Source: Candidatus Obscuribacteraceae bacterium
Lineage (GTDB): Bacteria > Cyanobacteriota > Vampirovibrionia > Obscuribacterales > Obscuribacteraceae
Length of the DNA stretch: 64,000 nucleotides
Assembly (NCBI GenBank): GCA_044228145.1
Contig: JBGAVL010000002.1
Location: 15 to 64,014, forward strand
Direction of reading: 5' to 3'
The translations under genes were made by a program, and so were the position numbers. The notes under the pieces were generated by a model that was not told where the DNA came from, did not search any database, and saw nothing but the letters and a program-made list of their open reading frames with translations. Of the stretch, positions 5,958-58,081 are shown in pieces (position 1 is the stretch's first letter; each line of letters starts with the position of its first letter).

Positions 5958-5991
5958 TGTAGAGGCACAGACTGCGACAATTGATGGAGGC

Positions 5992-10330: not shown

Positions 10331-10339
10331 ACTTCGAAA

Positions 10340-29968: not shown

Positions 29969-30189
29969 GATGCATCTCTCCTCTTCATGCCGACGCCAAC
30001 CGCCAGAATCGTCAATTATACGAGCCCTGGCATCACCAAGCCGAGTTTCTAATCTATCTCCTCAGTTGACAAGCAATCGATGCCGCACACCGCTAGCATT
30101 ACGCTAATGATTCGGCATCCGTAACAAATGTAAGATAATGAAGTGTGATGAGCTGTTTAGCCAGCCAAAGCGAACAAAGGAGCACGAGC

Positions 30190-30834
30190 ATGCCGGCTCG
30201 CCCAAGTGAATTGTATGTCTCCGTTGAGGAATATCTTGCCAGCGAAGAGCGCAGCACGATTCGTCACGAGTATGTAGACGGCCGTCTGTTCGCAATGGCA
30301 GACTCGACCTTGAAGCACAATATTTTGTCTGGGAACCTCTTTTCACTTCTTCACGCGAGAGCAAAAGGTGGGCCATGCAGAGTCTTTGTTCATGCGATAA
30401 AAGTGCGCGTCGAAGCTACCAACAGCTTCTATTACCCTGACATTATGGTTGCATGCTCACCATTCGATGAGGATGCCGTTTTCACTGATCAACCTGTACT
30501 TCTGGTGGAGATCCTGTCGCCATCAACATCTGCAATAGATCGACGAGAAAAACTAATTGCATACAAGCAGATACCGTCACTGAAGGAATATCTGATCGTG
30601 CATCAGCGCAAGCGGTGCGTTGAGATCTATAGTCGGGACGAAACAGGTATTTGGAGCATTTGTGAGCTCGCGACCGGCAAAGTTTTCGAAATCTGCTCTG
30701 TCCCAGGCGTTCCGATTCGAGTTTCTATGGATGACTTATATGCGGATGCTGATGGTGAAGGCGCTACCACGCCAGAAGTGACAGAGGACGAGACTGATTA
30801 CAGCTGGATGGACGAGTCTGAATCGGAAGAGTGA
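30190..30834 (+). CDS. Uma2-family (DUF820) endonuclease with acidic C-terminal tail
   Basis: VSVEEYLASEE..HEYVDGRLFAM, YPDIMVAC and LLVEILSPSTSAIDRREKLIAYKQIPSLKEYLIVHQ. ATG 30190 preceded by AAGGAG. Confidence 0.85.
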   Translation: MPARPSELYVSVEEYLASEERSTIRHEYVDGRLFAMADSTLKHNILSGNLFSLLHARAKGGPCRVFVHAIKVRVEATNSFYYPDIMVACSPFDEDAVFTDQPVLLVEILSPSTSAIDRREKLIAYKQIPSLKEYLIVHQRKRCVEIYSRDETGIWSICELATGKVFEICSVPGVPIRVSMDDLYADADGEGATTPEVTEDETDYSWMDESESEE

Positions 30835-35705: not shown

Positions 35706-37286
35706 TCACTTCGACTTCATGACGAAATGCATTTTCTTCTCCAGCTTCTCTGCTTCCGCATCGCGCTTGAGGATTCTCAACAGACCGGCATACTGCTCAA
35801 GCAGTGGCAACATTTCTTTCGACATTGCTCCAACAGAGATCTCACGAATCTCAATGGCTTTCAAATAGTTTTTCTCAGCCTCGTCGTACCGCCCCTGGGC
35901 CTTGAGGCAGCCACCCAGGCGATTGAGTGAGTGCGGCAAACGCTCGTCAGTACGGCCTAATTGCTCGGCAAGCTCCACCGCCTGCATAAAATGCCTTTCT
36001 GCCTCATAGAAATTCCCGTTGACCATTGATTGCTGGCCGGTTACGTTATGCAGATTCCAAAGATCAACAAGCTTGTTATTCGCAGGGTCTGGCTCAGCTT
36101 GCCCCTGCGGTGCAAGCCCACCGGGCGTGTTTGAAGAGCCCGGAGCCATCGAAGACTTGCGCAATGTCTGGCTCAGACCGGACGCTTGCGTCTGCTCGAC
36201 GCGAAACTTCTCGTGAATACCAGATGCTCTGAATGGGTCTTGAGACTCAGGACGGATTGATTGATGCATCCCAGAGACTGTTTGCCCAGGCGCAATTCCA
36301 GTGCTCTGTTCTGCCGTAGGCTTGCCGCTGCGTTTCCATCTATTAGCGGCATCCACATTCGCTGCCGGACGTTGAATTCCTTGAACCCGCGCGCCTACAT
36401 TGGCAATTTGTTCTAAGTGCATTCCCAGCTCTGCAGCCGATTGAAAGCGATCGTCAGGACGTTTCAAAATGCACTTATGAATCAAACTTGCGATCAAAAG
36501 TTCTTGCTCCGAGCGACAAAGTCCGGCAAGTGGCGCAGGTGAATCATTGAGGTGCATATGAATTGTCTGCATTGCATTGCCGCCGCGAAATGGCGGATAT
36601 CCTGCAAAACACTCATGCATTACACAACCAAGTGAGTAGATGTCCGAACGCGCGTCCACGTGGCTGCCCTTGCACTGCTCCGGGCTCATATAGAGCGGAC
36701 TGCCTACCGCTTCGCCGGTAGCGGTCAATTGCTGCATAGTCACGCCTGTGTCCGCAAGAACCTTTGCAATGCCGAAATCGAGCAGCTTCACATAGCGGTC
36801 GCCCTCGATGAATTGCAGCATTATGTTGCTGCTCTTTATGTCACGGTGAATGACGTTTTTCTTGTGAATGTAATTGAGCGCCTTAAGCGCCTGACCAAAC
36901 ACGAAAACAAAGTCGGAGCTGCTGCACTTGCCGGATCTCTTGACCAGTTCTGAAAGACTAAACCCTTCTACGTATTCCATCACGAAAAATGGTTCTCCGT
37001 CGATGGTATATCCGAAGTCAAACACTGCGACAAGATTAGGATGCGAGAGCTGTCCACCCGCCTTTGCTTCTGTCTCGAAGCGCGAAAGGCTGGTCCTGTC
37101 CTTTATGAGTTCCATATTTAAGACTTTTATTGCAACGGGCTTATTCAGTTGCACATGGGTGGCCTTCAGCACTGTACCCATGCCGCCGCTGCCCAATTCT
37201 CCAATTATCGAATAGCGCTCTGGAGGAACTCTGGGGAAGCGCGGTTGCCCATTGTTACCGCTGCCAGGTGGTACTTGGTTATACAT
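35706..37286 (-). CDS. Hanks-type Ser/Thr protein kinase with C-terminal TPR repeats
   Basis: GELGSGGMGTV, VAIKVL, HRDIKSSNIML, DFGIAK and SPLYMSPEQ. A Pro/Gly/Ser-rich linker precedes TPR-like NGNFYEAERHFMQAVELAEQLG and GRYDEAEKNYLKAIEIRE. Confidence 0.9.
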   Translation of the reverse strand: MYNQVPPGSGNNGQPRFPRVPPERYSIIGELGSGGMGTVLKATHVQLNKPVAIKVLNMELIKDRTSLSRFETEAKAGGQLSHPNLVAVFDFGYTIDGEPFFVMEYVEGFSLSELVKRSGKCSSSDFVFVFGQALKALNYIHKKNVIHRDIKSSNIMLQFIEGDRYVKLLDFGIAKVLADTGVTMQQLTATGEAVGSPLYMSPEQCKGSHVDARSDIYSLGCVMHECFAGYPPFRGGNAMQTIHMHLNDSPAPLAGLCRSEQELLIASLIHKCILKRPDDRFQSAAELGMHLEQIANVGARVQGIQRPAANVDAANRWKRSGKPTAEQSTGIAPGQTVSGMHQSIRPESQDPFRASGIHEKFRVEQTQASGLSQTLRKSSMAPGSSNTPGGLAPQGQAEPDPANNKLVDLWNLHNVTGQQSMVNGNFYEAERHFMQAVELAEQLGRTDERLPHSLNRLGGCLKAQGRYDEAEKNYLKAIEIREISVGAMSKEMLPLLEQYAGLLRILKRDAEAEKLEKKMHFVMKSK

Positions 37287-45943: not shown

Positions 45944-46021
45944 AATTGTCCAGGAGTCATCCAGAGACACTTTTCTAGCTCACAATGGGCTCACCACTTT
46001 TCATTTGCTCTCGATTTGCCC

Positions 46022-46411
46022 CTATGCACTTCTATTCGTCCAGGCCTCATCTCTGGTCAAGAAGCTGATGGCCAGCATCACAAGACCAGCCAGAGCGGCA
46101 GGAACGAATCCTGAAACCGTCAGATATTGGGGAACGAAATCGGCAGTAATCATCATGGCCAATGCCGGCAACAGCCAGAAGCCCAGAATCCAGGCAGGGA
46201 TGAGCCAGAGCAATGCGAGCCCTAGAGAGCTGACGGTGAGAACTGCAGAAAGAGCAATCACGGTGATCTCAACCAGCCAGAGAACCAGACCGAAGACGAG
46301 TGACAGCACAAGAGCGATTGCAAAATTACCATGGAAACTTATGCCATGGATTTGCGGCAGAATAAAGGCGAATGCCGCAGCCATTAAGCCAAGCCTGATC
46401 AAAATCCTCAT
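46022..46411 (-). CDS. phage-holin-4_2 / DUF360 family membrane protein
   Basis: 129 aa with 4 TM helices. The pattern AFILPQIHGISFHGNFAIALVLSLVFGLV..WLLPALAMMITADFVPQYLTVSGF is typical of DUF360. ATG preceded by GGGAGGAAA. Confidence 0.7.
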   Translation of the reverse strand: MRILIRLGLMAAAFAFILPQIHGISFHGNFAIALVLSLVFGLVLWLVEITVIALSAVLTVSSLGLALLWLIPAWILGFWLLPALAMMITADFVPQYLTVSGFVPAALAGLVMLAISFLTRDEAWTNRSA

Positions 46412-46813
46412 TAAGTTTCCTCCCTATCCTTTGCCTGCCTTGCAAGCACACCAGTGAGACGTCGCAGACAGCCGGTAGTTCCCGGCAGGCGGCCAGGAGA
46501 GATTTAGAAACCTCTAAAACGTTCATAGTCAGCCGTTTTCCAGAGTTCTACTTTCCAATATAGTATATATAACAAAAAAGCAAGCAACGCTGGAAACGAT
46601 GAGAAATAGGCAGTTTGCTACCTAAGCTCCCACGCAGTTTCCGCGCTGCTCACTTTGAGTGCTCTGAGGCGAGCTGGCTGAGCCAGTATCGAATACCAGA
46701 TTCACGCTTTCATCATGACGTGCACGATCCGGCAGCGACCGCGAGACAGAGCGGCAGATTTCTCCACCGCTCCATCCCGCAATTCCGCTCACGGGGTCTG
46801 CTTGCGCAGCCAC

Positions 46814-48208
46814 TTACGGAATCTGCCTGCGCATCCAGTCTTCGGCAGCGCGCAACTGATTGTCGTTGCGTGAGCCGATGAGCAGATTGCCCGGGGCAGT
46901 CACTACCGTGTCCGGCACAACGCCGTTGCGCACAGAAATACCCGCATCCCCCAGCCAGCGACCGTTAGGAGTGCGTCCCATGATGTTGGTGACGCGCAGG
47001 CGGTGACCGTTGCCGACAGGAATCAGCGTCTGGCCGATGCCCTTGCCGTAGGTCTGGGTACCGATTACGTGCACACGCCCGTTGTCCTGCAGAGCTGCGG
47101 TAAACAGCTCGGAGGCACTGGCGGTGTCGAAGTTGACCAGGATGACGACCGGCTTGTCTCCAACCAGGTTGGGGCGGCGAGTCCAGGGCACCGAAACGCC
47201 ATTGACCGTAACCCAGAGGCGGTTGGGGGATGCCTCGGCAGTCCAGTGCAACACACCGGCCGGACTGTGGAAGTCCATGCGCGTGATCACACCCGCGTCC
47301 ATGAACATCGCCGCCGATTCGACAGCCGTGTGGATAAATCCACCACCGTTGTCGCGCAGGTCGATGATGTAGCCTTTGCAGTCTTGCATCTGCTCGAGCG
47401 CTGCCTGCAGCTGATCCGCCTGGTCGAGCTGGAAAAAGCTCTCCACGCGGATATAGGCGATGTCACCAGGCAGACGCTGCGTGGAGACGACCGGTCTCTG
47501 CACGGCCATGCGCTGCACTTTGACCTGGACATCCACGCCGTTCTGCCTGACGACAAGCGTCATCTCCTCACCGGCTTCGCCGGAGAGAAGCTTGAGCAGT
47601 TCGGCAAGAGCCAAGCCTGAAGTGGAGGTGCCGTTGACACTGACGAGAACATCGCCCGGGTTGATGCCAGCCGCTTGAGCCGAGCTGCCTCGCACCACCT
47701 TATCGATGGTAGGAAATGCGTTGGCTCCGTCGGTTTCCGGCAATTGAAGCCCGTTTGAATTGACGACGGCCGAGCCGGATCTGTCGAAAGCCGGCTTGAA
47801 GACCAGCCCGATCAGCTCCTGCTTGCCCTCGGCTTCGTTGATCAGCGTTTGCACTTCCTGCTTTCCATGCAGGATCGTGTAGGGGTCTTCGAGCGACGCC
47901 ACCATTTCACGAGCAAAGCGGAGCGCGTCCTCTTCGGTCTTGATCTGGTCGTCGTACTTGTGCTCCCATTGCGCCCAGTCCTGCAATTTGGACTGGTCGT
48001 AGTAATTCACCCTCACTGTCTCCCAGGTCCTGTGGTACAGCTCACGAGGAGTGACGACAGGATCGATGGCGTAGTAGTTGAAGGCATTGAGCGCCACAGT
48101 GAGAACCACTGCCAGCGCCAGAAGTCCACTAATCGCTGACCACTTGAAAGTCCGCGAGAGGAGGCGGCGCCACCGGGGAGGCGGCGCCTGTGGAGAGGCG
48201 TTAGTCAT
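46814..48208 (-). CDS. S41-family C-terminal processing peptidase (PDZ-containing)
   Basis: N-terminal TM anchor, PDZ (GINPGDVLVSVNG) and S41 blocks IIDLRDNGGGF, LVNFDTASASELFTAALQD and GTQTYGKG. ATG preceded by GAGGTAA. Confidence 0.92.
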   Translation of the reverse strand: MTNASPQAPPPRWRRLLSRTFKWSAISGLLALAVVLTVALNAFNYYAIDPVVTPRELYHRTWETVRVNYYDQSKLQDWAQWEHKYDDQIKTEEDALRFAREMVASLEDPYTILHGKQEVQTLINEAEGKQELIGLVFKPAFDRSGSAVVNSNGLQLPETDGANAFPTIDKVVRGSSAQAAGINPGDVLVSVNGTSTSGLALAELLKLLSGEAGEEMTLVVRQNGVDVQVKVQRMAVQRPVVSTQRLPGDIAYIRVESFFQLDQADQLQAALEQMQDCKGYIIDLRDNGGGFIHTAVESAAMFMDAGVITRMDFHSPAGVLHWTAEASPNRLWVTVNGVSVPWTRRPNLVGDKPVVILVNFDTASASELFTAALQDNGRVHVIGTQTYGKGIGQTLIPVGNGHRLRVTNIMGRTPNGRWLGDAGISVRNGVVPDTVVTAPGNLLIGSRNDNQLRAAEDWMRRQIP

Positions 48209-48365
48209 AGGTATTACCTCATAGGTAAGAGGCTCGTCCTGACTGAAACTTGGACGCGCCTAAATACTTGGAAGAACTGATAGGTGGAAAACGGTCGAAC
48301 ATTCCGGACGCAAACGCGAATGAGATGCGCGAAAGGGGCGGACGAACGTTTTCACGGGAAAGTTA

Positions 48366-48427
48366 TTGCGCCGGTTGAAACTGGCTTGCGCCATTCACAA
48401 ACTGACTTGCGCCAGTTTGAAACCGAC
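48366..48427. repeat. three tandem units of about 21 nt, TTGCGCC-N6-AAAC(T/C)G(G/A)C
   Basis: TTGCGCCGGTTGAAACTGGC / TTGCGCCATTCACAAACTGAC / TTGCGCCAGTTTGAAACCGAC, inside a 783-nt region that appears non-coding. Confidence 0.8.
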
Positions 48428-48991
48428 TTCACGACATCGCCCACACGCATGAGACGCATGCCGAACAGGCAACCGAACAGCCCCAAAAGACCGTCAGTAT
48501 GCAAGTGTCACTCAACCAACCTCGTCAAAGGCATGAAAGAAACCAGAAGTGCCGGAGGGCATGGTTTTTCAGGAGCTTATGAAGCTGGCCTCGAAATGGA
48601 AAAAGCGGAGAGTGGACTCTAATAAGTTATGAAACGCAGACAGCAATATTCAAGTATAAAGCAGTATTTCTGACTCAAGAACCAGAACAATTACATATTT
48701 AGCTCAGCTCAGGCGAGCACTTGAAAACCACAAAATATCGCGATCTTCGGCACACTTCAATGCTGATTGGCGAAGGTAGCATCCCTTGGCAACAATCGGT
48801 TTGGCTCATTAGGCGCACGCAATAGCAAATCGCCCATCCGCGCTAGTTTTCGTTGCAAATTTGTGGCGACCGGCTTCAAAAGCAGCAATCACAAAAAAAT
48901 TCCAATGAGAATTCTGCTCTAGTGTTGGTTTTCATAATTTACTATCTCCAGGAAAATGAGATCCTATGCCGGAACTTTCACCCGGTCCGAA

Positions 48992-50266
48992 ATGAGCAAC
49001 CTGCGCGTCACTGCATTTCAGCACGAGAAAACAGGCACGACCTCACGTGTCTCAGCGAACATCGACGGCACAGAGCTGTGGTTTGAGTGCGATGACGTTG
49101 AACTGGAACCTTCCGCCGAAGCTCTCGCCACTCTCTGGCTGATTCCGGCGTTGCTCGGCAAGCGCAATCTCGAGATCGAACAACCGGTCTGTGCTACCTG
49201 GTACGAAAACGCGCACAAGGTGATGGATTTCCTGAATTTCAGCTGGGCTGCATCTCCTGTCGAAATACTTGCCGGGACAAAAGAGAACGCAGGCATGCCG
49301 CGTACGGCCACCGGGCTTTTCTTTACCGCCGGTGTTGATTCTTTTTATACTTTTTTCTCGATTCCTAGACCTGATTTCTTGATCTATCTCGAGACTTTCG
49401 ATGTTCCTGCAGAGGCAGAAACGCGATCGAGAATCGCCAGAGAGCGTTTGCAAAAGATTGCCACGGCTGTGGGTTCGCACCCGATCACGGTACGAACAAA
49501 CGCAAAAAAACACCCCACCTTTGCCGCTCAAAGCTTTACCGACACACACGCCTCGCTACTGGCCGCAGTTGGCCACCTGCTTGCACCACACATAGTATCA
49601 ACAACAATCGCCCCTTCCTGGTTTAAGGGTCATCACATGGTATTTGGAAGCAATTGGCAACTGGATCCCCTCTGGTCATCGGCTCGCCTGCAAATTATTC
49701 ATGGCGAAAATTCCTTGCATCGCATCGATCGAGTAAAGGCAATTGCCGCCCAAACACTGGCGCAAGACAACCTGCATGTTTGCTTTGAAAGCTACAACTG
49801 CTCGCGCTGCGAGAAGTGCGTGCGGACAATGCTCGAGTTGCATCAAGCCGGCAAACTGGCCGAATTCAAAGTTTTCGATCAAAGTATTCCAATCTGGCAA
49901 GCAATAGACAATTTGCCGCGGGTTATACAGCCAATTCTTTTCGAACCGGCATTGCACAATAATCCAACACCCGAGCTGGAGAAAGCCTTAAGGCATCTTT
50001 TCAGACGCACCTCGCTAGCGACAAGAGCGATTGAAGACCAATTGAAGCAGCGCCGACACGTAGATGAGCAGTTCCCAAAGATCCAAGAAGGGCTGAATAA
50101 TGCGCTGCACCACTATACTCTTTTGCAGGAAGAGCACAAGCGCTTGTCTGATGACTACGCTTTGATAGTAGGAAATCTACCAATACAGAAAAGCATCAGG
50201 CTGGTGCGCAAGGTAGTGAAAAAACTGCGCGGAGCAAATGCAAATCGGGGTGCGCGCCATGAATGA
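48992..50266 (+). CDS. QueC-like PP-loop-fold protein, paralog 1 (degenerate PP-loop TAGVDS)
   Basis: 424 codons from ATG 48992, which aligns with the paralog N-terminus (ORF-track start 48956). Contains LFFTAGVDSFYTF (49316-49342) and the Cys cluster CFESYNCSRCEKCVRT (about 49781-49828). The C-terminus is a coiled coil. Confidence 0.6.
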   Translation: MSNLRVTAFQHEKTGTTSRVSANIDGTELWFECDDVELEPSAEALATLWLIPALLGKRNLEIEQPVCATWYENAHKVMDFLNFSWAASPVEILAGTKENAGMPRTATGLFFTAGVDSFYTFFSIPRPDFLIYLETFDVPAEAETRSRIARERLQKIATAVGSHPITVRTNAKKHPTFAAQSFTDTHASLLAAVGHLLAPHIVSTTIAPSWFKGHHMVFGSNWQLDPLWSSARLQIIHGENSLHRIDRVKAIAAQTLAQDNLHVCFESYNCSRCEKCVRTMLELHQAGKLAEFKVFDQSIPIWQAIDNLPRVIQPILFEPALHNNPTPELEKALRHLFRRTSLATRAIEDQLKQRRHVDEQFPKIQEGLNNALHHYTLLQEEHKRLSDDYALIVGNLPIQKSIRLVRKVVKKLRGANANRGARHE

Positions 50267-51551
50267 TGCTGTAATAGGTGAGTTCAAACGCACAAAAAAT
50301 GGCTCTGCTCTGCGACTTGTTTCACAGTTTGACGGCGAGCCCGTCTGGTTTGAATCGGAAGATATAGAGCTGGAGCCCAGTATCGAGGCTCTGGGCACGA
50401 TATGGCTCATTCCCTGCATTTTGAGCAATCGCAATATCAAATTCGAACAGCCTGTCTGCAAGGTCTGGTACGAAAATGCGCATGCCATCATAGATTTTCT
50501 CAAAGACAACTGGGGAACCGCCAAAATCGACATTTGCGCTGAAACATACGAAACCAAAACAGTCTCGCAAGAGGCAGCGGCAATTTGTTTTTCCGGTGGT
50601 GTCGATTCGTTCTATACTCTCCTTAAAAACGGCACGCCAAAGTATCTTGTCAGCGCCGAGCCTTTCGACCAACCGTCCACTTCTATCGAGACCTTCAAGG
50701 TAGTGCGCAAGAGGTTGGAAACGGTAGCTCAGGCAGTCGGCTCCAGCGTGATTACGGTGAGAAGCAATGTCATTGAGCATCCAAGCTTCAAAATACACCA
50801 CCTTCTGGACACTCATTCTCCCGTTCTAGCAAGCCTGGGCCATTTACTGTCACCATACATAGGGTCGATTTCCATTTCACCGTCTTACAACCAGACTGAA
50901 ATCGCGACGCACGCTTGCCGCAACCAACTCGACACCCTCTCATCGTCAAAGCGCTTGGAGGTAGTGCACCATGCAGACACCTGGCGCCGAGACAGAGTGG
51001 CAGCCATCGCGGATTGGCAGTTGGCCCGTGAGAATTTGTTTGTCTGTTTCAACAAGCAGGGTCTCAACCGCAACTGCTCACGGTGCGAAAAGTGCATACG
51101 CACGATGCTGGACCTGCACATATTGGGCAAGCTAGAGTCTTTCAAAGTTTTCGATCAAAGCGTGCCCTTGTGGGAGGCAATGGAATCCGTCAAGTTGGTC
51201 ACCTTCTTTGAGACATACGAGCAAGCGTTGAAAGAACCAATTGATTCACAACTAAAACTTGCAATAAGACGCATGATTCGCCGAGAATTTGAGCGCATAA
51301 CTCGACTGGAGAATGCCGAACGCTTCAGGCGGCATGTCGATGAAGAGTTCTCCACAGTGCAAGAAGGTCTGGCAAACGCCCTTCATCACTACTCTTTACT
51401 GCAAGAGAATTACGACAATCTTCTCAATGACTATAAAGAAGTCGTTGAGAACCGCCCTCTAAAACGTGGTGTCAGAGCCGTTCGTCACGTTATGCGAATG
51501 CTGCGTGCCGGTCGAAAGATTCACCCTGGACAAAACACAAGAAATCCTTAG
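50259..51551 (+). CDS. QueC-like PP-loop-fold protein, paralog 2 (intact SGGVDS)
   Basis: 430 codons. ATG 50259 overlaps the paralog-1 stop (ATGAATGA). Contains ICFSGGVDSFYTLL (50583-50609) and the Cys cluster CFNKQGLNRNCSRCEKCIRT. The C-terminal coiled coil is conserved with paralog 1. Confidence 0.6.
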   Translation: MNDAVIGEFKRTKNGSALRLVSQFDGEPVWFESEDIELEPSIEALGTIWLIPCILSNRNIKFEQPVCKVWYENAHAIIDFLKDNWGTAKIDICAETYETKTVSQEAAAICFSGGVDSFYTLLKNGTPKYLVSAEPFDQPSTSIETFKVVRKRLETVAQAVGSSVITVRSNVIEHPSFKIHHLLDTHSPVLASLGHLLSPYIGSISISPSYNQTEIATHACRNQLDTLSSSKRLEVVHHADTWRRDRVAAIADWQLARENLFVCFNKQGLNRNCSRCEKCIRTMLDLHILGKLESFKVFDQSVPLWEAMESVKLVTFFETYEQALKEPIDSQLKLAIRRMIRREFERITRLENAERFRRHVDEEFSTVQEGLANALHHYSLLQENYDNLLNDYKEVVENRPLKRGVRAVRHVMRMLRAGRKIHPGQNTRNP

Positions 51552-51689
51552 CGCAATATGCTCTACGTGTGCTGTTTAATTTTTGTGCACGGCTTGGTCA
51601 CAACTTGGCTACCGATTGCACACGTTTGCCGGGAGATAGTGGGGACGCAATTGCCCCCAGTTTTTACTCCTTGCTGCGAGATCATTACT

Positions 51690-52922
51690 ATGACTGCAAA
51701 CTTTGAAGCAACAGATGCTTGCGCTGCAAAAAATGCCAACAACACAGATAACGCAGCGGCACTATGCGCCCGCGACGCCTGGTCTCCCGGCGCCGGGCAT
51801 ACCGCAGGCAATCTGCCACGGCTGGACATGCAAATGAATTCAAGACTGGCTCTGATTCAAAGCAACGATGACTTGCTGAATGCCTATCTCAATTCAGTAA
51901 AAGACTCAGGATTGAACATCTCAGCAGACTCGCGCTCAAGCAGCAAAATACAAGAGCTGTTTGCCGCCCTGCCTTCTGATCGAACCAGAGAGCACGCAAT
52001 AGTAAACGAGCGGGCTCAAGGCGGTGACTCTCGCCTGGAAAAAGTCGACGTGCAGAGCGTGAACGAGGGTAGCGTCTCTGTCAGGGAATACCGTGGGCTG
52101 GACCGCTCTTACACTAAAGACCGTTTGGCTTCAGCTAAAGACAAAATCGAGACACCGGATGCCACAGTCATCATTCCCAAGGCTTTCGACCCAAACAAAC
52201 CAGTACGTGTGATGATCTTCAATCATGGATTGGGAGCATCCGGTAAGGATTGGGCGACCAGTCAGGAACTGGCCAGGCAAATGGCGGCAGCCGATCCCAA
52301 TACAATCATGGTCATACCGGAATGGCAGAGCAAACCAGGCGACGGGCCGGGCAAACCGCGCAACGGGCACAACCCGGAAAATTCAATTGTTTACGGACAA
52401 AACTTCTTCCGCGATCAACTGCAGCAGATAATGCACAGCACGCCGGAATTGCGCGGTAAAACAGTCGACGACATCGCCAGTATCGGCATCATTTCGCACT
52501 CCGGTGGCTTCAAAGCTTCAAAAGCACAATTGGAAAATAACGGCTTCGGCGACAAAGTAACCAGCGTGACGGTGCTTGATTCCATGTATGCGCCTGACAG
52601 TTACAATTCATGGCTAAAAGCAAACGCGCAAGATTTAGCCTCCGGCAGAAAGCATTTCACAGTTGTCGAAACGGGTGGCAGGCCGGACAATGGTGGACCG
52701 ACATGGAAAGAACAGCTAGAAGCTAATACAAGAAAATCGCTGGGGCAGTATCAGGTTCCGGATACCTCATATGACAAGTACGGTAGAAATGCCAACGATC
52801 CATCGGCTTTCGAGCGTGGAGGGGTTGTCTTCCTGCGCAATGGAGACCACAAAAATTTGCCCCGGAATTTTGTCGCAAGAGTCCTGGAAGGTGAAAAGCG
52901 CCTCGCAGTGGCGCGCCGCTAA
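51690..52922 (+). CDS. alpha/beta-hydrolase-like protein (esterase-type), hypothetical
   Basis: 411 codons from ATG 51690 (ORF-track start 51558). Contains PVRVMIFNHGLGASG and the nucleophile-elbow-like IGIISHSGGF. The N-terminal region of about 170 aa is unrecognised. Confidence 0.5.
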   Translation: MTANFEATDACAAKNANNTDNAAALCARDAWSPGAGHTAGNLPRLDMQMNSRLALIQSNDDLLNAYLNSVKDSGLNISADSRSSSKIQELFAALPSDRTREHAIVNERAQGGDSRLEKVDVQSVNEGSVSVREYRGLDRSYTKDRLASAKDKIETPDATVIIPKAFDPNKPVRVMIFNHGLGASGKDWATSQELARQMAAADPNTIMVIPEWQSKPGDGPGKPRNGHNPENSIVYGQNFFRDQLQQIMHSTPELRGKTVDDIASIGIISHSGGFKASKAQLENNGFGDKVTSVTVLDSMYAPDSYNSWLKANAQDLASGRKHFTVVETGGRPDNGGPTWKEQLEANTRKSLGQYQVPDTSYDKYGRNANDPSAFERGGVVFLRNGDHKNLPRNFVARVLEGEKRLAVARR

Positions 52923-52940
52923 GAGCGATCTCAAGGGCTT

Positions 52941-53056
52941 AATTGCGGACTGAAACAGACAATTGCGGCTAAAAGCTTATCTTCGGCTAAAAGCATATCT
53001 GCGATTTAAAGCATATCTGAGGTTTAAAACGCGCATTAGCGGTTAAAACGCGCTTT
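52941..53056. repeat. degenerate tandem array, six units of about 18-21 nt (..GCGG(C/T)TAAAAGC(A/T)TATC.. drifting to ..GGTTAAAACGCGC..)
   Basis: Units start at 52941, 52961, 52982, 53000, 53018 and 53037. The array is intergenic, between the hydrolase gene and the third DUF2029-like gene. Confidence 0.75.
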
Positions 53057-53162
53057 GCGTGCTTCCCCAGCCGCTTGGTCTCCTGCTATCGTGTTTCTGT
53101 TGCGCTTGCGGTTTCAAACAGATCTCGGACGCACAGATCAGATAAACAATCGTGCGGCGGAA

Positions 53163-54470
53163 ATGAAGAAAAATCTCTCTTTAATTGCCTTTGGTTGGGG
53201 ATTTCTCCTCATCTTGCTTTTTATCTTCACCGATCTGACCCAGCAAAAATTCAGCCAGCAAGCCGACTATTTGATGACATATCACACGGCCGGCACGCTG
53301 GTCAGAGAGGGCAGAGCTTCGATGCTCTACCCGCCGGCCGGCGCCACATCCTTCATGGACACGGAATTCGATAAAGCGGCGCATCGCATTCTTCCGGAAT
53401 TGCCGCAGACTTCTCTGGCAGAATACATGTACATGCCGCTTGTGGCCGGTCTTTTCGTGCCATTCAGTTTTTTGCCGCCCGGCTATTCTCTTCTGGCATG
53501 GCAAGTTCTAAGCCTTACGTCTCTAGCCTATTGCGCCTTTTTGATTTCGTCGCACGCGTCGCATACTGATGAGCCAAGTACCCTGGACATAGCGGCCGGA
53601 TGGATTTCGCTGACCTTCCTGCCTGTAGCAATGTCGATCTGGATCGGACAGCTCAGCATAGTATTCGGGCTCCTGCCGCTTGTCGGCGGGCTTTATCTTG
53701 TGCTCAAGCGAAAAGATTTCCAGGCCGGTTTGATATGGTCGCTGGCGGTTTTGAAACCGCAATTCTTCATTGCGGCGCTCATGATGGTGGTTGCACTGGC
53801 CACGGCCAAACGTTTCAAACCGGCTATCGGCATCGTTTGCGGAATCATCGTCATTATCGGTATCAACCTTGTACTGTTCTCACCCGCTCTTTTCAATGAA
53901 TGGCTGACGACGCTGAAGCTTGCTGATGCTGTTTACTCCGACGTCAAGTATGGAGTCGCTCAACACCTCGCCACCAGCCTGCCCAGATCAATTATTCTTT
54001 TGCTGCCGGTATCACAGCATGCCGTGTTCAAACCGTTTATCTATGCCCTCTCAGCCCTCCTGGGCGGCATCGGGCTTTATTTCGCCAGCCGGCTGGTGCG
54101 CTCGTCTCTTTCGGATTCGTTCAAAATATCTCTGGCTGCGATCATCTGTGTGTTTGCAACGCCCATGATTGTTCCGCACGTCTTTTTCTACGATTACACC
54201 ATCTTCGTCGCTGCCGGCTTTCTTGCCTGCGCCTTTGCCTGGCCGGAGTACCTTGATTGGCGTATCCGTTCGCTCACATATGCGACATGGCTCGCCGCCA
54301 ACATTTATGGCGTCATCATGATGGCAAACAAAAATTTTGCTATAGCTATCGTTTTTGTTCTCATAATGCTCGAACTCTATCGCCGCGCCTTGACGACCGG
54401 CAATGCCGCCTTGAAGTACGGAAGCACGCAATCTGAAACAGATAAAGCCGATAAGGCTGCCAGCGATTGA
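53163..54470 (+). CDS. polytopic membrane protein, DUF2029/GT87-like GT-C glycosyltransferase (paralog 3)
   Basis: 435 codons from ATG 53163 (MKKNLSLIAFGWGF; ORF-track start 53055 runs through the repeat array). Multi-TM, with the motif LAVLKPQFFIAAL. Confidence 0.6.
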   Translation: MKKNLSLIAFGWGFLLILLFIFTDLTQQKFSQQADYLMTYHTAGTLVREGRASMLYPPAGATSFMDTEFDKAAHRILPELPQTSLAEYMYMPLVAGLFVPFSFLPPGYSLLAWQVLSLTSLAYCAFLISSHASHTDEPSTLDIAAGWISLTFLPVAMSIWIGQLSIVFGLLPLVGGLYLVLKRKDFQAGLIWSLAVLKPQFFIAALMMVVALATAKRFKPAIGIVCGIIVIIGINLVLFSPALFNEWLTTLKLADAVYSDVKYGVAQHLATSLPRSIILLLPVSQHAVFKPFIYALSALLGGIGLYFASRLVRSSLSDSFKISLAAIICVFATPMIVPHVFFYDYTIFVAAGFLACAFAWPEYLDWRIRSLTYATWLAANIYGVIMMANKNFAIAIVFVLIMLELYRRALTTGNAALKYGSTQSETDKADKAASD

Positions 54471-54727
54471 TTTCGAAAAAAATTTCCAACTCCCTCGCAC
54501 GAGGGGTATGCGCCGATACAGGAAAGCGTAAATTGAAATCAGCCAGAGGTCATTGACCGCCCCCCGGCAAGCATTCGCCGCAAGATAGGGCGCGAGACTC
54601 ACCCCTCGCGCTCGTATCTAGCGAACGCACCTTCTGGTGTCCCCTATAACGGGTTGGGATTGAAGATAAAGGAATATCGGAGATTGGCATCCCGGATGCC
54701 ACGCGAGGTCGCTGATATTCCAAAGAC

Positions 54728-54780
54728 AACGCGAGTCACGAAGAGAGATGCCCACCTCGCTTCGTGACCGCGTTATTTTT
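54728..54780 (+). terminator. strong intrinsic terminator/attenuator hairpin
   Basis: AACGCGAGTCACGAAG (54728-54743) pairs with CTTCGTGACCGCGTT (54760-54774) in a 15-bp stem with one bulge, plus 3 further inner bp. ATTTTT follows, and then immediately GGAGG. Confidence 0.6.
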
Positions 54781-54795
54781 GGAGGTATTGTGCGC

Positions 54796-54930
54796 GTGAG
54801 TTTTGGTGGTAGGTTTCGCTGGTGGATTCTGCCGACCTATCTTGTCAGCTTACAGCGTTTGCGTATTTTGTTGTTGAATCAGACTATCATTGATGAGTAT
54901 CCTCAGCAGTCTATACACAACAGCTCGTGA
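54796..54930 (+). CDS. possible 44-codon upstream ORF (hydrophobic peptide) coupled to the CHASE3 kinase gene
   Basis: GGAGG (54781-54785) lies 10 nt before GTG 54796. The peptide is VSFGGRFRWWILPTYLVSLQRLRILLLNQ... Stop TGA 54928-54930 overlaps the kinase GTG 54927 (GTGA). It may be non-coding. Confidence 0.3.
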   Translation: MSFGGRFRWWILPTYLVSLQRLRILLLNQTIIDEYPQQSIHNSS

Positions 54931-56723
54931 CAGATTCGACAGATTTGACCGACACTAAAAAGCCACTGCTCTCGCCTGATGGCAAAGGGCGCAAGAAGGC
55001 CAGAGTAGATGGCTTTCAGTCGGCGTACACGTCGTTTTTTTCACCGGAGGCGATACTTTCCGCCGGTCTGGTAACTGCCCTGTTGTTGGTCGCTCTAGCG
55101 TCTGTTTCTGCATATCACAATTCATTTCAAGCAATCGAAAGTGAGCGCTCGGCAGAACGCTCGCTTGAGCTTTTAGCAACTTTGGAATCACTCTTTCTTG
55201 TCGTCAGAGATGCCCAGACGCAGGCGGTCGACTATTTGAAACGACCCAATCAAGACGCCCTTGATCGGTATCACCGCGCCACCAAACAATTGGCGCCGCA
55301 TATGAGAAACGCCAAGAAACTTACCGATAATGACACTCGCCGCACCCGGCACACCATGTATTTGGAATGGCTGATTTCCACCTTTGAGCGCCATTACGAC
55401 ATAGCCCTTGCCAACCGAGGCAAGGGAGAACTGGACGAAGATTCCGCAAAAGCAGCAGCCCGCAAGGGCTTCGATATGACGCAGCAAATTCGCAACCGCG
55501 TTGTATACATCGAACTCGAGCAACAAAAGCTTGTCAAAAGCCGAGCCCTTAAATCGGAAAGTGACGCACGCTCAGCAGCAAACGTGTTTGTGGCTCTGGC
55601 TGTCTTTCTTGCCGTGCTGTTTTTGCTGCTCGTCTTCATCATCCGCCGCCATATTCGACTGGTTCAAGCTTCGGCAGAGTCGGCCAGGCGCATCAGTCGC
55701 GAGATTGCCGAGAATGCACCGGTGGGTATCATTCTTCTCGATCAGCAATTGCAAATCGTCAATGCCAATCCGATGATTGCCGACTTTCTGCATTCTAAAG
55801 GTTCTGAACTTCTCGGAAAGAGCATCAGCACACTTCTTCCAGAACTTGGTGATGTTGGATTGAAACATACAGACGAGTCGAGCGCGCCTAAAAAGCGCAC
55901 CGCTCTTAGTATCAAACGACCGACCACCAAAGAAGAACACTTGTTCGACACCACCAGCTGGGCTGTTACGGAAGGCAGTGAACTAAAGGGTTTTATTCTC
56001 TTGCTCCGCGATGTCACTGACGAAGTTCGCCTGTCAAGGCAGAAAGAACTTTTGCTGGAAACAATCGCGCACGATTTGAAAACACCGCTCATCGCGTGTA
56101 ATTACACTGTGGAAGCGCTTTTGTTTGAAGCGGAGAAAACACAAAACAAAGACGAAGAGATGCTGGAAGAGATCAGAGAGAGCATCGAAGACGTACTGAC
56201 GATGGTCAAACAGCTTCTCGAATTCTCTCGCTACGATGATGGCGTCGAGGTATTGAGCTTTGAATACGTAGATCTTGCACCCGCCATCAAAGAAAGCATC
56301 GACGTCGTGCGTCCACTGGCGCAGCACCATGATGTACAACTGGTCGACACGCTAAATGGCGCGAAAATCGCAGTCAGGGCTGACCGCACAGCCATTGTCC
56401 ACCTGGTTTCCAACCTTTGCACAAATGCAGTCAAAATCTCTCCTGCCAATACCAAGGTGGTTGTAAGCGCCACTGTCGACAGCAATTTCGTCAGTGTCAG
56501 CGTTACCGATCAAGGACCCGGGCTCACAGATGAAGATCGCGAAAAAATCTTCCGCCGCTTCGCCAAAGGCGACCGGACCCGAGCCAGCTACGGCAGCAGC
56601 GGCCTGGGACTCTACCTGTGCAATGAAATCGTGCGTCTTTTGGGCGGCGAGATTGTCTTAGAAACCGAAGTCGGCAAAGGCAGCTCTTTCATCATCAAGC
56701 TGCCAATACAGGGAGACAACTAG
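54927..56723 (+). CDS. sensor histidine kinase (TM - CHASE3-like - TM - PAS - HisKA - HATPase_c)
   Basis: The periplasmic region has the CHASE3-like pattern (LESLFLVVRDAQTQAVDYLKRPNQDALDRYHRA). H-box ETIAHDLKTPL. HATPase boxes NLCTNAVKISP, DQGPGLT and GSSGLGLYLCNEIV. Confidence 0.9.
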   Translation: MTDSTDLTDTKKPLLSPDGKGRKKARVDGFQSAYTSFFSPEAILSAGLVTALLLVALASVSAYHNSFQAIESERSAERSLELLATLESLFLVVRDAQTQAVDYLKRPNQDALDRYHRATKQLAPHMRNAKKLTDNDTRRTRHTMYLEWLISTFERHYDIALANRGKGELDEDSAKAAARKGFDMTQQIRNRVVYIELEQQKLVKSRALKSESDARSAANVFVALAVFLAVLFLLLVFIIRRHIRLVQASAESARRISREIAENAPVGIILLDQQLQIVNANPMIADFLHSKGSELLGKSISTLLPELGDVGLKHTDESSAPKKRTALSIKRPTTKEEHLFDTTSWAVTEGSELKGFILLLRDVTDEVRLSRQKELLLETIAHDLKTPLIACNYTVEALLFEAEKTQNKDEEMLEEIRESIEDVLTMVKQLLEFSRYDDGVEVLSFEYVDLAPAIKESIDVVRPLAQHHDVQLVDTLNGAKIAVRADRTAIVHLVSNLCTNAVKISPANTKVVVSATVDSNFVSVSVTDQGPGLTDEDREKIFRRFAKGDRTRASYGSSGLGLYLCNEIVRLLGGEIVLETEVGKGSSFIIKLPIQGDN

Positions 56724-57409: not shown

Positions 57410-58081
57410 CTAAATAATCCCGGCTCTGAGCGCTTTGATTGCGGCTTGCGTGCGATCGCTGACTGCCAACTTTCCTAGAATGCTCTTGATGTGTGTTTTA
57501 ACTGTCTCAATGCCGATGCCCATGCGAGCGGCAATATCGGAGTTGGACAGACCATCGACGAGCAATTCCAAGACTTCCACTTCCCTTTTTGAAAGCGGCT
57601 CATAGACGATTTGCTGCTCTGCAGGCAGCTTTTGGGATATCAAAGTAGAAGCGGTGGTCGGCAAAACTTTCAGGACTTTGGCGGCGATGACTGCATCAAG
57701 CCAGAGATCTCCGCCTTTTACGGTCTGCACAATCTGCGGAAACTTTCTGAAATCGCTATCCTTCAGACAATAGCCGTTTGCGCCAGCCGCCAGTGATGCA
57801 AAAATATCTCGCTCGTTATTGTGCGAAGTAAGCATGATGATTTTCGCCGACGGCTCTTTCTCGCGCATCATGCGACAGGCCTCGATGCCGTCCATGACCG
57901 GCAAACCAACGTCAAGCAGCACGACGTCCGGCTTCAACTTAACGCACATTTCGACGCCTTCACGTCCATCGGAAGCTTCACCGACAATCTCAATGGAGCG
58001 GTCGCTCTCCAGCAAGCGCCTGAGTGATTTCCGCATGTGCGGATGATCTTCTACCAGCAAAACTCTGACTTTTTCGTCCAT
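57410..58081 (-). CDS. NarL/FixJ (LuxR-type HTH) response regulator
   Basis: VRVLLVEDHPHMR, DVVLLDVGLPVMDG, IIMLTSH and C-terminal LSKREVEVLELLVDGLSNSDIAARMGIGIETVKTHIKSILGKL. Confidence 0.93.
   Translation of the reverse strand: MDEKVRVLLVEDHPHMRKSLRRLLESDRSIEIVGEASDGREGVEMCVKLKPDVVLLDVGLPVMDGIEACRMMREKEPSAKIIMLTSHNNERDIFASLAAGANGYCLKDSDFRKFPQIVQTVKGGDLWLDAVIAAKVLKVLPTTASTLISQKLPAEQQIVYEPLSKREVEVLELLVDGLSNSDIAARMGIGIETVKTHIKSILGKLAVSDRTQAAIKALRAGII

What the first reader, a model, noticed from the sequence alone, without database searches (positions are those of the whole stretch)
48992..52922. Coupled pair of enlarged QueC-like PP-loop paralogs plus an alpha/beta-hydrolase: candidate uncharacterised three-gene system
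Seen in the sequence:
- Two same-strand ORFs (424 and 430 codons after start refinement) are paralogous end to end. Shared blocks are WFE(C/S)(D/E)D(V/I)ELEPS, AGVDSFYT, NCSRCEKC(V/I)RTML(E/D)LH, FKVFDQS(I/V)P(I/L)W and RRHVDE(Q/E)F..QEGL.NALHHY.LLQE.
- They overlap by ATGAATGA (stop 50264-50266, ATG 50259). This implies translational coupling and probably a stoichiometric complex.
- The core combines a PP-loop (SGGVDS in gene 2) with a downstream Cys cluster C-x5/9-C-x2-C-x2-C-x-R.
- The proteins are about twice the size of QueC. They carry an extra N-terminal domain of about 110 aa and a conserved C-terminal coiled coil of about 100 aa.
- An alpha/beta-hydrolase-like gene follows 138 nt downstream.
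- The cassette is bracketed by long repeat-bearing non-coding DNA, 783 nt upstream and 240 nt downstream.

Established knowledge: a PP-loop followed by such a Cys cluster characterises QueC/ExsB-type adenine-nucleotide alpha-hydrolases (SGGxDS plus a C-terminal Zn site with CxxCxxC). QueC-like enzymes have been recruited into anti-phage systems, namely QatC of Qat and the QueC-like Cap9 of type IV CBASS. None of their usual partners (TatD, ATPase, TGT-like, CD-NTase) is present here.

Inference: this is a new context for a QueC-like chemistry, such as nucleobase or carboxylate activation and possibly conjugation.
Basis: partly seen in the sequence, partly recalled or inferred. Interest (0 to 1): 0.8.

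Follow-up and report, generated by a model that had tools for sequence, protein, structure and literature searches.

The report
QueC-fold enzyme pair with glycosyltransferase
Two overlapping sister genes encode ATP-using enzymes of a very large, unnamed family that looks like the queuosine enzyme QueC but sits in sugar-polymer gene clusters. Their conserved partner is the downstream membrane glycosyltransferase, not the hydrolase next to them.

Summary
Genes 48992-50266 and 50259-51551 are end-to-end paralogs (44% identity, E 2e-133) that overlap by ATGAATGA. Both carry a PP-loop and a C-terminal CxnCxxCxxC cluster. Gene 3 (51690-52922) is an alpha/beta-hydrolase.

- **Fold:** it is QueC-like (Foldseek best matches are Cap9 and phage QueC), but all three QueC substrate motifs are absent.
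- **Annotation:** no Pfam, NCBIfam, PADLOC or PDB model claims these proteins.
- **Family size:** about 9,700 clusters at 50% identity, across many phyla.
- **Context:** neighbours and domain fusions are glycan genes (GT2, GT4, pyruvyl transferase, Wzt, AsnB-like). No defence partners were found.

In Melainabacteria relatives the conserved operon is one to three paralogs followed by a translationally coupled GT87 glycosyltransferase (window 53163-54470). The hydrolase is absent from those operons. It also occurs upstream of GT87 in genomes that have no paralogs. It is therefore an independent insert, not an obligate third component.

Natural two-copy fusions and complementary motif decay support a dimer. 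The most likely role is ATP-dependent adenylation and amidation-type tailoring of an envelope glycan precursor. That chemistry is inferred, not shown.

This is an uncharacterised family of a known enzyme kind, of moderate interest.

The parts
48209..48991 (.). Divergent intergenic region (783 nt) between the S41 peptidase gene (46814-48208, minus strand) and gene 1. It contains a 21-nt tandem repeat at 48366-48429.
   Evidence: It is 92% identical to the same region of relative L011, which has one repeat unit fewer. No Rfam match was found.
48992..50266 (+). Gene 1 (424 aa), a QueC-fold PP-loop paralog of the 'g1 clade'. The PP-loop variant TAGVDS lies at nt 49325-49342. The Cys cluster CFESYNCSRCEKC lies at nt 49781-49819. 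It keeps the family motif GSNWQLDPLWSS. The C-terminal helical extension starts at about nt 49979.
50259..50266 (+). ATGAATGA overlap between the start of gene 2 and the stop of gene 1 (translational coupling).
   Evidence: The same 8-nt overlap occurs between the paralogs in L001, L010 and L095.
50259..51551 (+). Gene 2 (430 aa), a QueC-fold PP-loop paralog of the 'g2 clade'. The canonical PP-loop SGGVDS lies at nt 50592-50609. The Cys cluster C263-x9-C-x2-C-x2-C lies at nt 51045-51095. The second family motif is degenerate (ACRNQLDTLSSS). The C-terminal helical extension starts at about nt 51246.
51552..51689 (+). 138-nt non-coding leader of gene 3. It is conserved upstream of gene-3 homologs in genomes that lack the paralogs.
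51690..52922 (+). Gene 3 (410 aa). The N-terminal ~110 aa are low-confidence and helical. The rest is an esterase-D / feruloyl-esterase-like alpha/beta-hydrolase domain with conserved NHG, H-S271-x-G, D297 and H387. It is a lineage-specific insert and not an obligate partner of the pair.
52923..53162 (.). 240-nt spacer with an 18-nt tandem repeat (52964-53028, plus related units to about 53056) upstream of GT87.
53163..54470 (+). GT87-family (GT-C type) membrane glycosyltransferase. It is the conserved operon partner of the paralogs in Melainabacteria.
   Evidence: Pfam PF09594, E 2.8e-17. It lies directly after the paralogs, with 4-nt overlaps, in L012, L093 and L095. It is separated by 13 nt in L001 and lies directly after the paralog(s) in L009 and L010.

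Best explanation
Genes 1 and 2 are a translationally coupled pair of paralogous PP-loop ATP pyrophosphatases. They belong to a very large, unnamed family. The family has a QueC-type fold and a QueC-type C-terminal tetracysteine site (probably Zn), but lacks QueC's substrate-binding motifs.

Shown:
- Across bacteria the family is embedded in glycan-biosynthesis loci and is repeatedly fused to glycosyltransferases and polysaccharide pyruvyl transferases.
- In Melainabacteria an old duplication gave a g1 and a g2 clade. These are always encoded in that order and are followed by a GT87 membrane glycosyltransferase.

Inferred:
- The two proteins form a dimer. Here it would be a heterodimer whose subunits have begun to divide labour.
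- The dimer uses ATP to adenylate a carboxyl or carbonyl group of a sugar, nucleotide-sugar or lipid-linked glycan intermediate in the cytoplasm.
- The activated group is then resolved with ammonia or an amine, giving an amide-type decoration.
- The tailored unit is then installed in an envelope glycoconjugate by the GT87 enzyme.

The alpha/beta-hydrolase (gene 3) arrived separately, with its own leader. At most it is another optional accessory of the GT87 locus.
For: Paralogy and coupling.

Fold:
- The AF2 model has pLDDT 86.5.
- The best meaningful PDB matches are Cap9 (9nto_B, prob 0.99, TMt 0.61), LarE and YcfA.
- The top four BFVD matches are all phage QueC, E 7e-5 to 7.5e-3.
- Pfam QueC matches 18 of 29 family members, at either the PP-loop or the Zn-site end.

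Family size: 9,659 clusters at 50% identity with E<=1e-3, and at least 573 loci among GTDB species genomes.

Glycan context:
- Neighbour clusters are GT2, AsnB-like, Wzt, GT4, pyruvyl transferase and methyltransferase.
- 23% of immediate neighbours are of these types, against about 8% at positions 2-5 and 0-5% further out. 27 of 70 loci have one directly adjacent.
- Fusions exist to PS_pyruv_trans, GT2 and GT4.

GT87 operon: S41(-) | paralog(s) | GT87 in L001, L009, L010, L012, L093 and L095. Overlapping stop/start codons were read in L012, L093 and L095.

Dimer:
- Natural single-chain two-copy proteins exist.
- Motif decay is complementary. The g1 clade keeps GSxWxLDPLWSS but has T[AGC]G[VT]DS. 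The g2 clade keeps SGGVDS but has lost the second motif.
- The related NASAT enzyme crystallises as a dimer (PMC10607449).

Hydrolase independence.
Against: - No substrate, product or activity is known for any member. The adenylation/amidation chemistry rests only on what PP-loop enzymes generally do.
- About half of the family loci examined show no recognisable glycan gene within 8 kb, and my ORF calling there was crude.
- GT2 and GT4 genes are common, so adjacency alone is weak. The fusions carry most of the weight.
- L012 has a single g1-type copy with GT87, and 64 of 77 loci are single-copy. L001 has three copies and L088 has four. A heterodimer is therefore not obligatory, and the copies could have separate specificities.
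- Zn versus Fe-S at the Cys cluster cannot be decided from sequence.
- The GT87 association is limited to one lineage.
Confidence: 0.6

Rival explanations
1. This is a self-contained three-gene system (two QueC-like enzymes plus the hydrolase). It performs QueC/Cap9/QatC-like nucleobase activation and conjugation, possibly in anti-phage defence.
For: The fold is closest to Cap9 and QueC. A QueC-type Cys cluster is present. The slot between the S41 peptidase gene and GT87 varies in gene content between relatives, as defence hotspots do.
Against: - No PADLOC hit above noise.
- No CD-NTase, TGT-like, ATPase or TatD partner in the window or among 128 immediate neighbours of family members.
- The QueC substrate motifs YxQxHxxE, VPxRN and YPDC are absent in 29 of 29 members (motifs from PMC13329287).
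- The hydrolase never co-occurs with the family elsewhere, and it occurs without the paralogs.
- The family's fusions are to glycan enzymes.
Confidence: 0.05
2. The Cys cluster binds an Fe-S cluster, and the enzymes are ATP-dependent sulfur transferases (like LarE, TtuA or YcfA). They would make a thio-substituted sugar or other thiolated metabolite rather than an amide.
For: Foldseek matches LarE (prob 0.93-0.96) and the 6-thioguanine enzyme YcfA. Three members give weak NCBIfam LarE hits. Non-sacrificial LarE uses Cys-ligated 4Fe-4S (PMC13329287).
Against: - The four-Cys pattern CxnCxxCxxC, placed C-terminal to the PP-loop domain, is the QueC Zn pattern and not the three-Cys LarE pattern.
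- The Pfam QueC model matches exactly this region.
- No sulfur-carrier or cysteine-desulfurase neighbours emerged.
Confidence: 0.1
3. The two paralogs are independent enzymes with different substrate specificities. They would be a tandem array of tailoring enzymes, each a homodimer, rather than subunits of one complex.
For: Arrays of three (L001) and four (L088) copies exist. L012 works with a single copy. Most family loci are single-copy. All family-invariant residues are retained in both paralogs.
Against: - The g1-then-g2 order is conserved, and an 8-nt overlap recurs in several lineages.
- Motif decay between the clades is complementary.
- Single-chain two-copy fusions recur, some with a degenerate second copy.
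Confidence: 0.2

Closest known systems
QueC (7-cyano-7-deazaguanine synthase, PF06508 / TIGR00364)
   Same: - A PP-loop SGGxDS motif.
- A Rossmann-like adenine-nucleotide alpha-hydrolase core.
- A tetracysteine CxnCxxCxxC site C-terminal to the core.
- It is the nearest structural neighbour among viral predicted structures.
- The Pfam QueC model matches both ends of the domain in family members.
   Different: - About 1.85 times larger, with an extra N-terminal domain of about 110 aa and, in this clade, a helical extension of about 100 aa.
- The QueC substrate motifs YxQxHxxE, VPxRN and YPDC are absent.
- The window proteins get no PF06508 hit even at E<=1.
- Profile-profile alignment covers only the PP-loop, at 50% probability.
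- The context is glycan genes, not queD/queE/folE.
Cap9 (type IV CBASS) and QatC (QatABCD), the QueC-family proteins of anti-phage systems
   Same: The best solved-structure match is Cap9 in the Cap9-CdnD complex (9nto_B, prob 0.99, TMt 0.61). These are QueC folds repurposed away from tRNA modification.
   Different: - No CD-NTase/Cap10 or QatA/B/D partners, and no PADLOC match.
- According to PMC13329287, Cap9 retains the ancestral QueC catalytic core. This family does not.
N-acetyl sugar amidotransferases (NASAT: WbpG, WbuX, PseA, LfnA; TIGR03573; PDB 8WEX)
   Same: - PP-loop enzymes with a Zn tetracysteine site, encoded in polysaccharide/LPS loci.
- The P-loop variant SGGxDSxY noted for the WbpG cluster also fits SGGVDSFY here.
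- Dimeric in the crystal.
- This is the closest analogue for the proposed role: ATP-dependent amidation-type tailoring of a sugar.
   Different: - The NASAT tetracysteine motif CxxCxn[GN]xCxxC lies N-terminal to the PP-loop and is absent here.
- No TIGR03573 hit and no 8WEX hit in the sequence or fold searches.
- It is a separate family.
AsnB-like amidotransferases of glycan loci
   Same: They are PP-loop adenylating amidotransferases used in glycan tailoring. Weak TIGR01536 and Pfam Asn_synthase hits occur for a few members.
   Different: This family has no glutamine-amidotransferase domain. An AsnB-like protein is a separate, frequently adjacent gene: it was found in 12 loci and is directly adjacent in 11 of them.

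Membership tests
PP-loop ATP pyrophosphatase / adenine-nucleotide alpha-hydrolase superfamily | SGGxDS pyrophosphate-binding loop after the first beta-strand | tested here: met
   Gene 2 has SGGVDS at aa 112-117. Gene 1 has TAGVDS. 25 of 29 family members have SGGxDS, and 28 of 29 have [ST]xGxDS.
PP-loop ATP pyrophosphatase / adenine-nucleotide alpha-hydrolase superfamily | Rossmann-like alpha/beta/alpha nucleotide-binding fold | tested here: met
   The AF2 model (pLDDT 86.5) matches Cap9, LarE, YcfA, a USP domain and phage QueC. PDB E-values are weak (>1e-3) because the model has several domains.
PP-loop ATP pyrophosphatase / adenine-nucleotide alpha-hydrolase superfamily | ATP to AMP + PPi with an adenylated substrate intermediate | not testable with these tools
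   This needs biochemistry.
Canonical QueC (PF06508) | C(x)8CxxCxxC zinc-binding motif near the C-terminus of the catalytic domain | tested here: inconclusive
   A tetracysteine CxnCxxCxxC is present in 29 of 29 members, but the first spacer is 9 aa (gene 2) or 5 aa (gene 1), not 8. Pfam QueC profile positions 149-201 match this region in P0006 and P0013, at 26.6-27.4 bits against a cut-off of 22. The identity of the metal is untested.
Canonical QueC (PF06508) | Substrate motifs YxQxHxxE, VPxRN and YPDC (PMC13329287) | tested here: not met
   None of the three is present in gene 1, gene 2 or any of the 29 aligned family members.
Canonical QueC (PF06508) | Match to the family model above its curated cut-off | tested here: not met
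   The window proteins have no PF06508 or TIGR00364 hit even at E<=1. hhalign against a QueC profile gives 50% probability over the PP-loop only.
Canonical QueC (PF06508) | Genomic or pathway link to preQ0 genes (folE, queD, queE) | not tested
   Only a 64-kb window is available. None was seen among the neighbours scanned, and no preQ1 riboswitch was found in 46000-55000.
Cap9 / QatC defence QueC-family proteins | Operon with a CD-NTase + TGT-like Cap10, or with QatA ATPase, QatB and QatD (TatD nuclease) | tested here: not met
   The window neighbours are an S41 peptidase, an alpha/beta-hydrolase, GT87 and a two-component system. No such families are among the 25 commonest Pfam families of the 128 immediate neighbours of family members, nor among the neighbour clusters. 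There is no meaningful PADLOC hit.
NASAT (WbpG/WbuX/PseA, TIGR03573) | Tetracysteine motif CxxCxn[GN]xCxxC N-terminal to the PP-loop, and a match to the family model | tested here: not met
   The motif is absent in 29 of 29 members. No TIGR03573 hit was found.
NASAT (WbpG/WbuX/PseA, TIGR03573) | Encoded in polysaccharide biosynthesis loci | tested here: met
   This holds for the family as a whole: glycan-type neighbours and fusions. In the window the link is the GT87 gene.
Alpha/beta-hydrolase (gene 3) | Alpha/beta-hydrolase fold with a nucleophile elbow and a Ser-Asp-His triad in canonical order | tested here: met
   Foldseek finds 123 PDB matches with E<=0.001. The best are S-formylglutathione hydrolase / esterase D and feruloyl esterases, at prob 1.00. 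N178-H179-G180, H270, D297 and H387 are invariant, and S271 is nearly invariant. No Pfam model passes its threshold.
GT87 glycosyltransferase (downstream gene) | Match to PF09594 above its cut-off | tested here: met
   63.7 bits against a cut-off of 25, E 2.8e-17.

The most novel reading that the evidence does not exclude
This is the Melainabacteria form of a huge, unrecognised class of dimeric QueC-fold ATP-pyrophosphatases. The class would install a so-far undescribed ATP-dependent decoration on envelope or exopolysaccharide sugars. One example would be amidation or amide-ligation of a uronic or pyruvyl-ketal carboxylate.

In this lineage the enzyme would have evolved into an asymmetric heterodimer. 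One subunit would keep the ATP loop and the other would keep the substrate motif. The heterodimer would feed a GT-C (GT87) transferase.
Probability: 0.3. Interest if true: 0.7.

Novelty: new variant of a known kind. Interest (0 to 1): 0.55.

Why it matters
About 9,700 clusters at 50% identity, from many phyla, share this architecture. No curated model or paper covers them, including the 2026 survey of the QueC superfamily.

The links to pyruvyl transferases, GT2/GT4 enzymes, Wzt exporters and, here, a GT-C transferase point to a missing glycan-tailoring reaction. Assigning it would improve annotation of polysaccharide loci in Planctomycetota, Gemmatimonadota, Verrucomicrobiota, Actinomycetota and Melainabacteria.

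It would also add a fourth functional branch to the QueC fold, after tRNA/DNA deazapurines, protein deazaguanylation and Qat defence. The paralog pair offers a natural case of subfunctionalisation in a PP-loop dimer.

Tried and rejected
- **Direct sequence annotation.** Pfam, NCBIfam, PADLOC and PDB phmmer/hmmsearch gave nothing above threshold for any of the three genes.
- **Profile-profile comparison with QueC.** Comparison with E. coli QueC alone, and with a 16-sequence enterobacterial QueC alignment, aligned only the PP-loop at 47-50% probability. The QueC alignment was not diverse enough to be a fair test.
- **A preQ1 or other riboswitch upstream.** There is no Rfam match in 46000-55000 apart from a chance miRNA hit.
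- **A secreted gene 3.** I considered a start at 51558 with a signal peptide, because two database gene calls (P0122, P0123) extend through a similar peptide. I rejected this. Substitutions are not biased to third positions, and the ATG at 51690 is the conserved start.
- **The flanking repeats as mobile-element ends.** They are short local tandem duplications. The upstream region is ordinary conserved intergenic DNA.
- **Promoter and terminator scans.** These gave no more sites than shuffled sequence.
- **Organism and annotation lookup.** An exact-sequence cluster look-up returned nothing useful.
- **A structured RNA in the gene-3 leader.** The RNAalifold signal is weak and rests on too few sequences.

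Full report
**Observation**

Gene 1 (48992-50266, 424 aa) and gene 2 (50259-51551, 430 aa) align end to end at 44% identity, E 2e-133. They overlap by ATGAATGA.

Gene 2 has a canonical PP-loop, SGGVDS, at residues 112-117. Gene 1 has TAGVDS. Both have a downstream C-xn-C-x2-C-x2-C cluster.

Gene 3 starts at 51690. A longer ORF from 51558 looks like a signal peptide, and two database gene calls run through it. However, substitutions against a homologous locus fall 17/11/11 on codon positions 1/2/3. The ATG at 51690 aligns as the start in three lineages. The 138 nt are therefore a conserved non-coding leader.

The flanks are 783 and 240 nt long. They contain short tandem repeats of 21 nt x3.1 and 18 nt x3.6.

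**What the paralogs are**

No curated model recognises them. Pfam, NCBIfam, PADLOC and PDB sequence searches return only noise. A profile built from the family still finds no solved structure by sequence.

An AF2 model of gene 2, built on a 29-sequence alignment, is confident (mean pLDDT 86.5). It has three regions:
- an N-terminal beta/alpha domain of about 100 residues;
- a Rossmann-like core;
- three C-terminal helices.

Foldseek against the PDB gives weak E-values but clear, consistent neighbours:
- Cap9 in the Cap9-CdnD complex (prob 0.99, TMt 0.61);
- LarE;
- the 6-thioguanine enzyme YcfA;
- a USP domain.

Against predicted viral structures, the top four matches are all phage QueC, with E 7e-5 to 7.5e-3.

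At the sequence level, the Pfam QueC model matches 18 of 29 family members weakly. In some it matches the PP-loop end (profile 4-61). In the closest relatives it matches the zinc-site end (profile 149-201, 26.6-27.4 bits against a cut-off of 22).

Calling the proteins 'QueC-like' is therefore fair for the fold and the metal-site pattern. It is not fair for family membership:
- The three substrate motifs that define canonical QueC (YxQxHxxE, VPxRN, YPDC; PMC13329287) are absent from all 29 aligned members.
- Profile-profile alignment with a QueC alignment covers only the PP-loop.

The family has its own invariant signature:
- FSGGVDSFYT;
- HGFD;
- RTN;
- THG..LA..GH;
- PWGSH..LDPLWSS;
- R..K;
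- VC...NCxRCEKCxRT.

**How big and where**

An exhaustive profile search finds 9,659 clusters at 50% identity with E<=1e-3, of which 5,082 have E<=1e-30. The phyla include Gemmatimonadota, Planctomycetota, Verrucomicrobiota, Acidobacteriota, Actinomycetota, Chloroflexota and Melainabacteria.

The closest relatives of the window's genes are all from Melainabacteria/Obscuribacterales MAGs. The window very probably comes from that group.

**Context of the family**

I called ORFs in 88 loci and clustered the neighbours. Pfam identified the recurrent neighbour clusters:
- GT2 glycosyltransferases (13 loci);
- an AsnB-like amidotransferase of about 608 aa (12 loci, directly adjacent in 11);
- Wzt-type ABC ATPases;
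- GT4 glycosyltransferases;
- polysaccharide pyruvyl transferases;
- methyltransferases;
- Wzx-like flippases.

Genes of these types make up 23% of immediate neighbours, about 8% at positions 2-5, and 0-5% beyond that. Of 70 non-redundant loci, 27 have such a gene directly adjacent and 36 have one somewhere in the 8-kb flanks. My gene calling was crude, so these figures are conservative but rough.

Domain fusions are stronger evidence. The family domain is fused in single polypeptides to PS_pyruv_trans (P0056, P0057, P0148, P0152), to GT2 (P0149, P0242) and to GT4 (P0186). One member (P0255) is instead fused to a SET domain. A three-gene cassette recurs in Planctomycetota: GT2 | family::pyruvyl-transferase fusion | AsnB-like.

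No nuclease, CD-NTase, TGT-like or Qat-type partner appears among the recurrent neighbour clusters or the 25 commonest Pfam families of the immediate neighbours.

**The unit in this lineage**

Related Melainabacteria genomes share the backbone S41 peptidase (minus strand) ... GT87 glycosyltransferase, CHASE3-PAS histidine kinase, LuxR-type response regulator. What varies is the content of the slot upstream of GT87.

| Locus | Content upstream of GT87 |
|---|---|
| L001 | three paralogs, with 8-nt overlaps |
| L010, L093, L095 | two paralogs |
| L012 | one g1-type paralog |
| L089, L090, L091 | a gene-3 homolog and no paralog |
| Window | two paralogs and gene 3 |

In L012, L093 and L095 GT87 follows with a 4-nt overlap; in L001 a 13-nt gap separates it from the last paralog.

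A tblastn search with gene 3 finds nothing in any of the 88 family loci. Its 24 detectable homologs are confined to this lineage. It also carries its own conserved leader.

The conserved functional unit is therefore paralog(s) + GT87. The hydrolase is an independent insertion between them. It may well be another accessory of the GT87 locus, but it is not a component of a 'three-gene system'.

Gene 3 itself is an esterase-D/feruloyl-esterase-like alpha/beta-hydrolase. It has 123 PDB matches with E<=0.001. It also has a conserved oxyanion NHG, a nucleophile elbow H-S-x-G, and conserved Asp and His.

**Do the paralogs work together?**

A neighbour-joining tree shows one duplication inside Melainabacteria. 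It gave a g1 and a g2 clade, which are always encoded in that order. The two clades have decayed in complementary ways:
- The g1 clade keeps the family motifs DTHA..LAA.GH and GS(N/H)WxLDPLWSS, but its PP-loop is T[A/G/C]G[V/T]DS.
- The g2 clade keeps SGGVDS everywhere, but the second motif is scrambled. In the window it reads ACRNQLDTLSSS.

The exhaustive search also found many natural proteins with two family domains in one chain (P0145, P0146, P0150, P0151 and others). In one class, the C-terminal copy has a PP-loop with the last Ser replaced (SGGVDA, GGGxDG). That copy has also lost the family motifs while keeping the Cys cluster.

Together with the conserved stop/start overlap, this supports a dimer with a tendency to asymmetry.

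Some evidence goes the other way:
- Most loci are single-copy.
- L012 manages with one copy.
- Arrays of three and four copies exist.

**Mechanism**

Shown:
- a PP-loop fold;
- a conserved ATP-loop;
- a QueC-type tetracysteine site;
- glycan context and fusions;
- operon coupling to GT87.

Inferred from what PP-loop enzymes do (QueC, NAD synthetase, Asn synthetase, NASAT, Dph6):
- The enzyme adenylates a carboxyl or carbonyl oxygen of its substrate.
- The activated group is displaced by ammonia or an amine.

In this context the substrate is most likely a sugar, nucleotide-sugar or lipid-linked glycan intermediate. Candidates include a uronic carboxylate, a pyruvyl-ketal carboxylate, or an acetamido group.

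The proteins lack signal peptides and are presumably cytoplasmic. The GT-C-type GT87 enzyme would then use the product on the outer face of the membrane.

I put about 0.6 on the overall picture and roughly 0.3 on the amide chemistry specifically. A sulfur-transfer alternative (Fe-S at the Cys cluster, as in LarE or TtuA) cannot be excluded from sequence.

**Comparison with what is known**

The 2026 survey of the QueC superfamily (PMC13329287) describes these groups:
- canonical QueC;
- QatC;
- Cap9;
- LarE;
- a PfkB-linked cluster;
- WbpG-type N-sugar amidotransferases;
- GMP synthase.

The present family fits none of them. Its closest functional analogue is the NASAT/WbpG group, which are PP-loop enzymes with Zn tetracysteine sites in LPS loci. 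In NASAT the Cys motif is different and lies N-terminal to the PP-loop. No NASAT model or structure matches here.

A full-text search for 'QueC-like' found nothing on this family, and a search for DUF6395, the only other Pfam model that weakly touches it, found no papers.

**Verdict**

The 'QueC-like' part of the interpretation survives at fold level. The 'three-gene system' and the defence analogy do not.

What is present is a lineage-specific, duplicated and translationally coupled version of a very large uncharacterised glycan-associated PP-loop family, in an operon with a GT87 glycosyltransferase. It is a new variant of a known kind of enzyme. It is of moderate interest, mainly because of the family's size and complete lack of annotation.

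Noticed in passing
window 51552-51689; L089 4540-4670; L090 5880-6000: A ~110-nt non-coding leader directly upstream of the gene-3 start is conserved in three lineages, including genomes without the paralogs. Two public gene calls wrongly translate through it. The consensus structure is weak (-6.8 kcal/mol) and rests on only four sequences.
   Followed up: partly
window 52964-53056: An 18-nt tandem repeat (x3.6, consensus TGCGGCTAAAAGCATATC) and two further related units lie just upstream of the GT87 start. It could be a regulator-binding array, for example for the nearby LuxR-type response regulator. It is absent from relatives in which GT87 directly follows the paralogs.
   Followed up: no
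window 48366-48429: A 21-nt tandem repeat (x3.1) lies in the divergent S41/gene-1 intergenic region. The 92%-identical relative L011 has exactly one unit fewer, so this is a recent duplication.
   Followed up: partly
window 49325-49342 and 50592-50609; alignment of the Melainabacteria clade: Motif decay between the paralog clades is complementary. The g1 clade has a relaxed PP-loop (T[AGC]G[VT]DS) but an intact GSxWxLDPLWSS motif. The g2 clade has an intact SGGVDS but a degenerate second motif.
   Followed up: yes
proteins P0145-P0167, P0240 (metagenomic): Natural single-chain proteins carry two copies of the family domain. In one class the C-terminal copy has SGGVDA or GGGxDG and has lost the family motifs, while retaining the Cys cluster.
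   Followed up: yes
L008, L032, L039, L052, L057, L059, L064, L065: A cassette recurs in Planctomycetota: GT2 | family domain fused to a polysaccharide pyruvyl transferase (~650 aa) | AsnB-like amidotransferase (~608 aa). It is a good entry point for working out the chemistry.
   Followed up: partly
protein P0255 (532 aa): One family member is fused to a SET (lysine methyltransferase) domain. This does not fit the otherwise glycan-only set of fusions.
   Followed up: no
L007 (Rhodococcus opacus, GCA_019192725.1) 5160-10440: Two family copies on opposite strands are flanked by two unrelated alpha/beta-hydrolases (Abhydrolase_1 and DLH). This second hydrolase association is not homologous to gene 3.
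   Followed up: no
window 46814-48208 (-), 54927-56723 (+), 57410-58081 (-): The S41 C-terminal processing peptidase, the CHASE3-PAS histidine kinase and the LuxR-type response regulator are syntenic with GT87 in all relatives examined. This holds whatever fills the variable slot.
   Followed up: partly
window 30145-30834 (+) and 35706-37286 (-): A Uma2-family putative restriction-endonuclease-like gene and a Ser/Thr protein kinase with TPR repeats lie upstream in the window. Neither is related to the finding.
   Followed up: no
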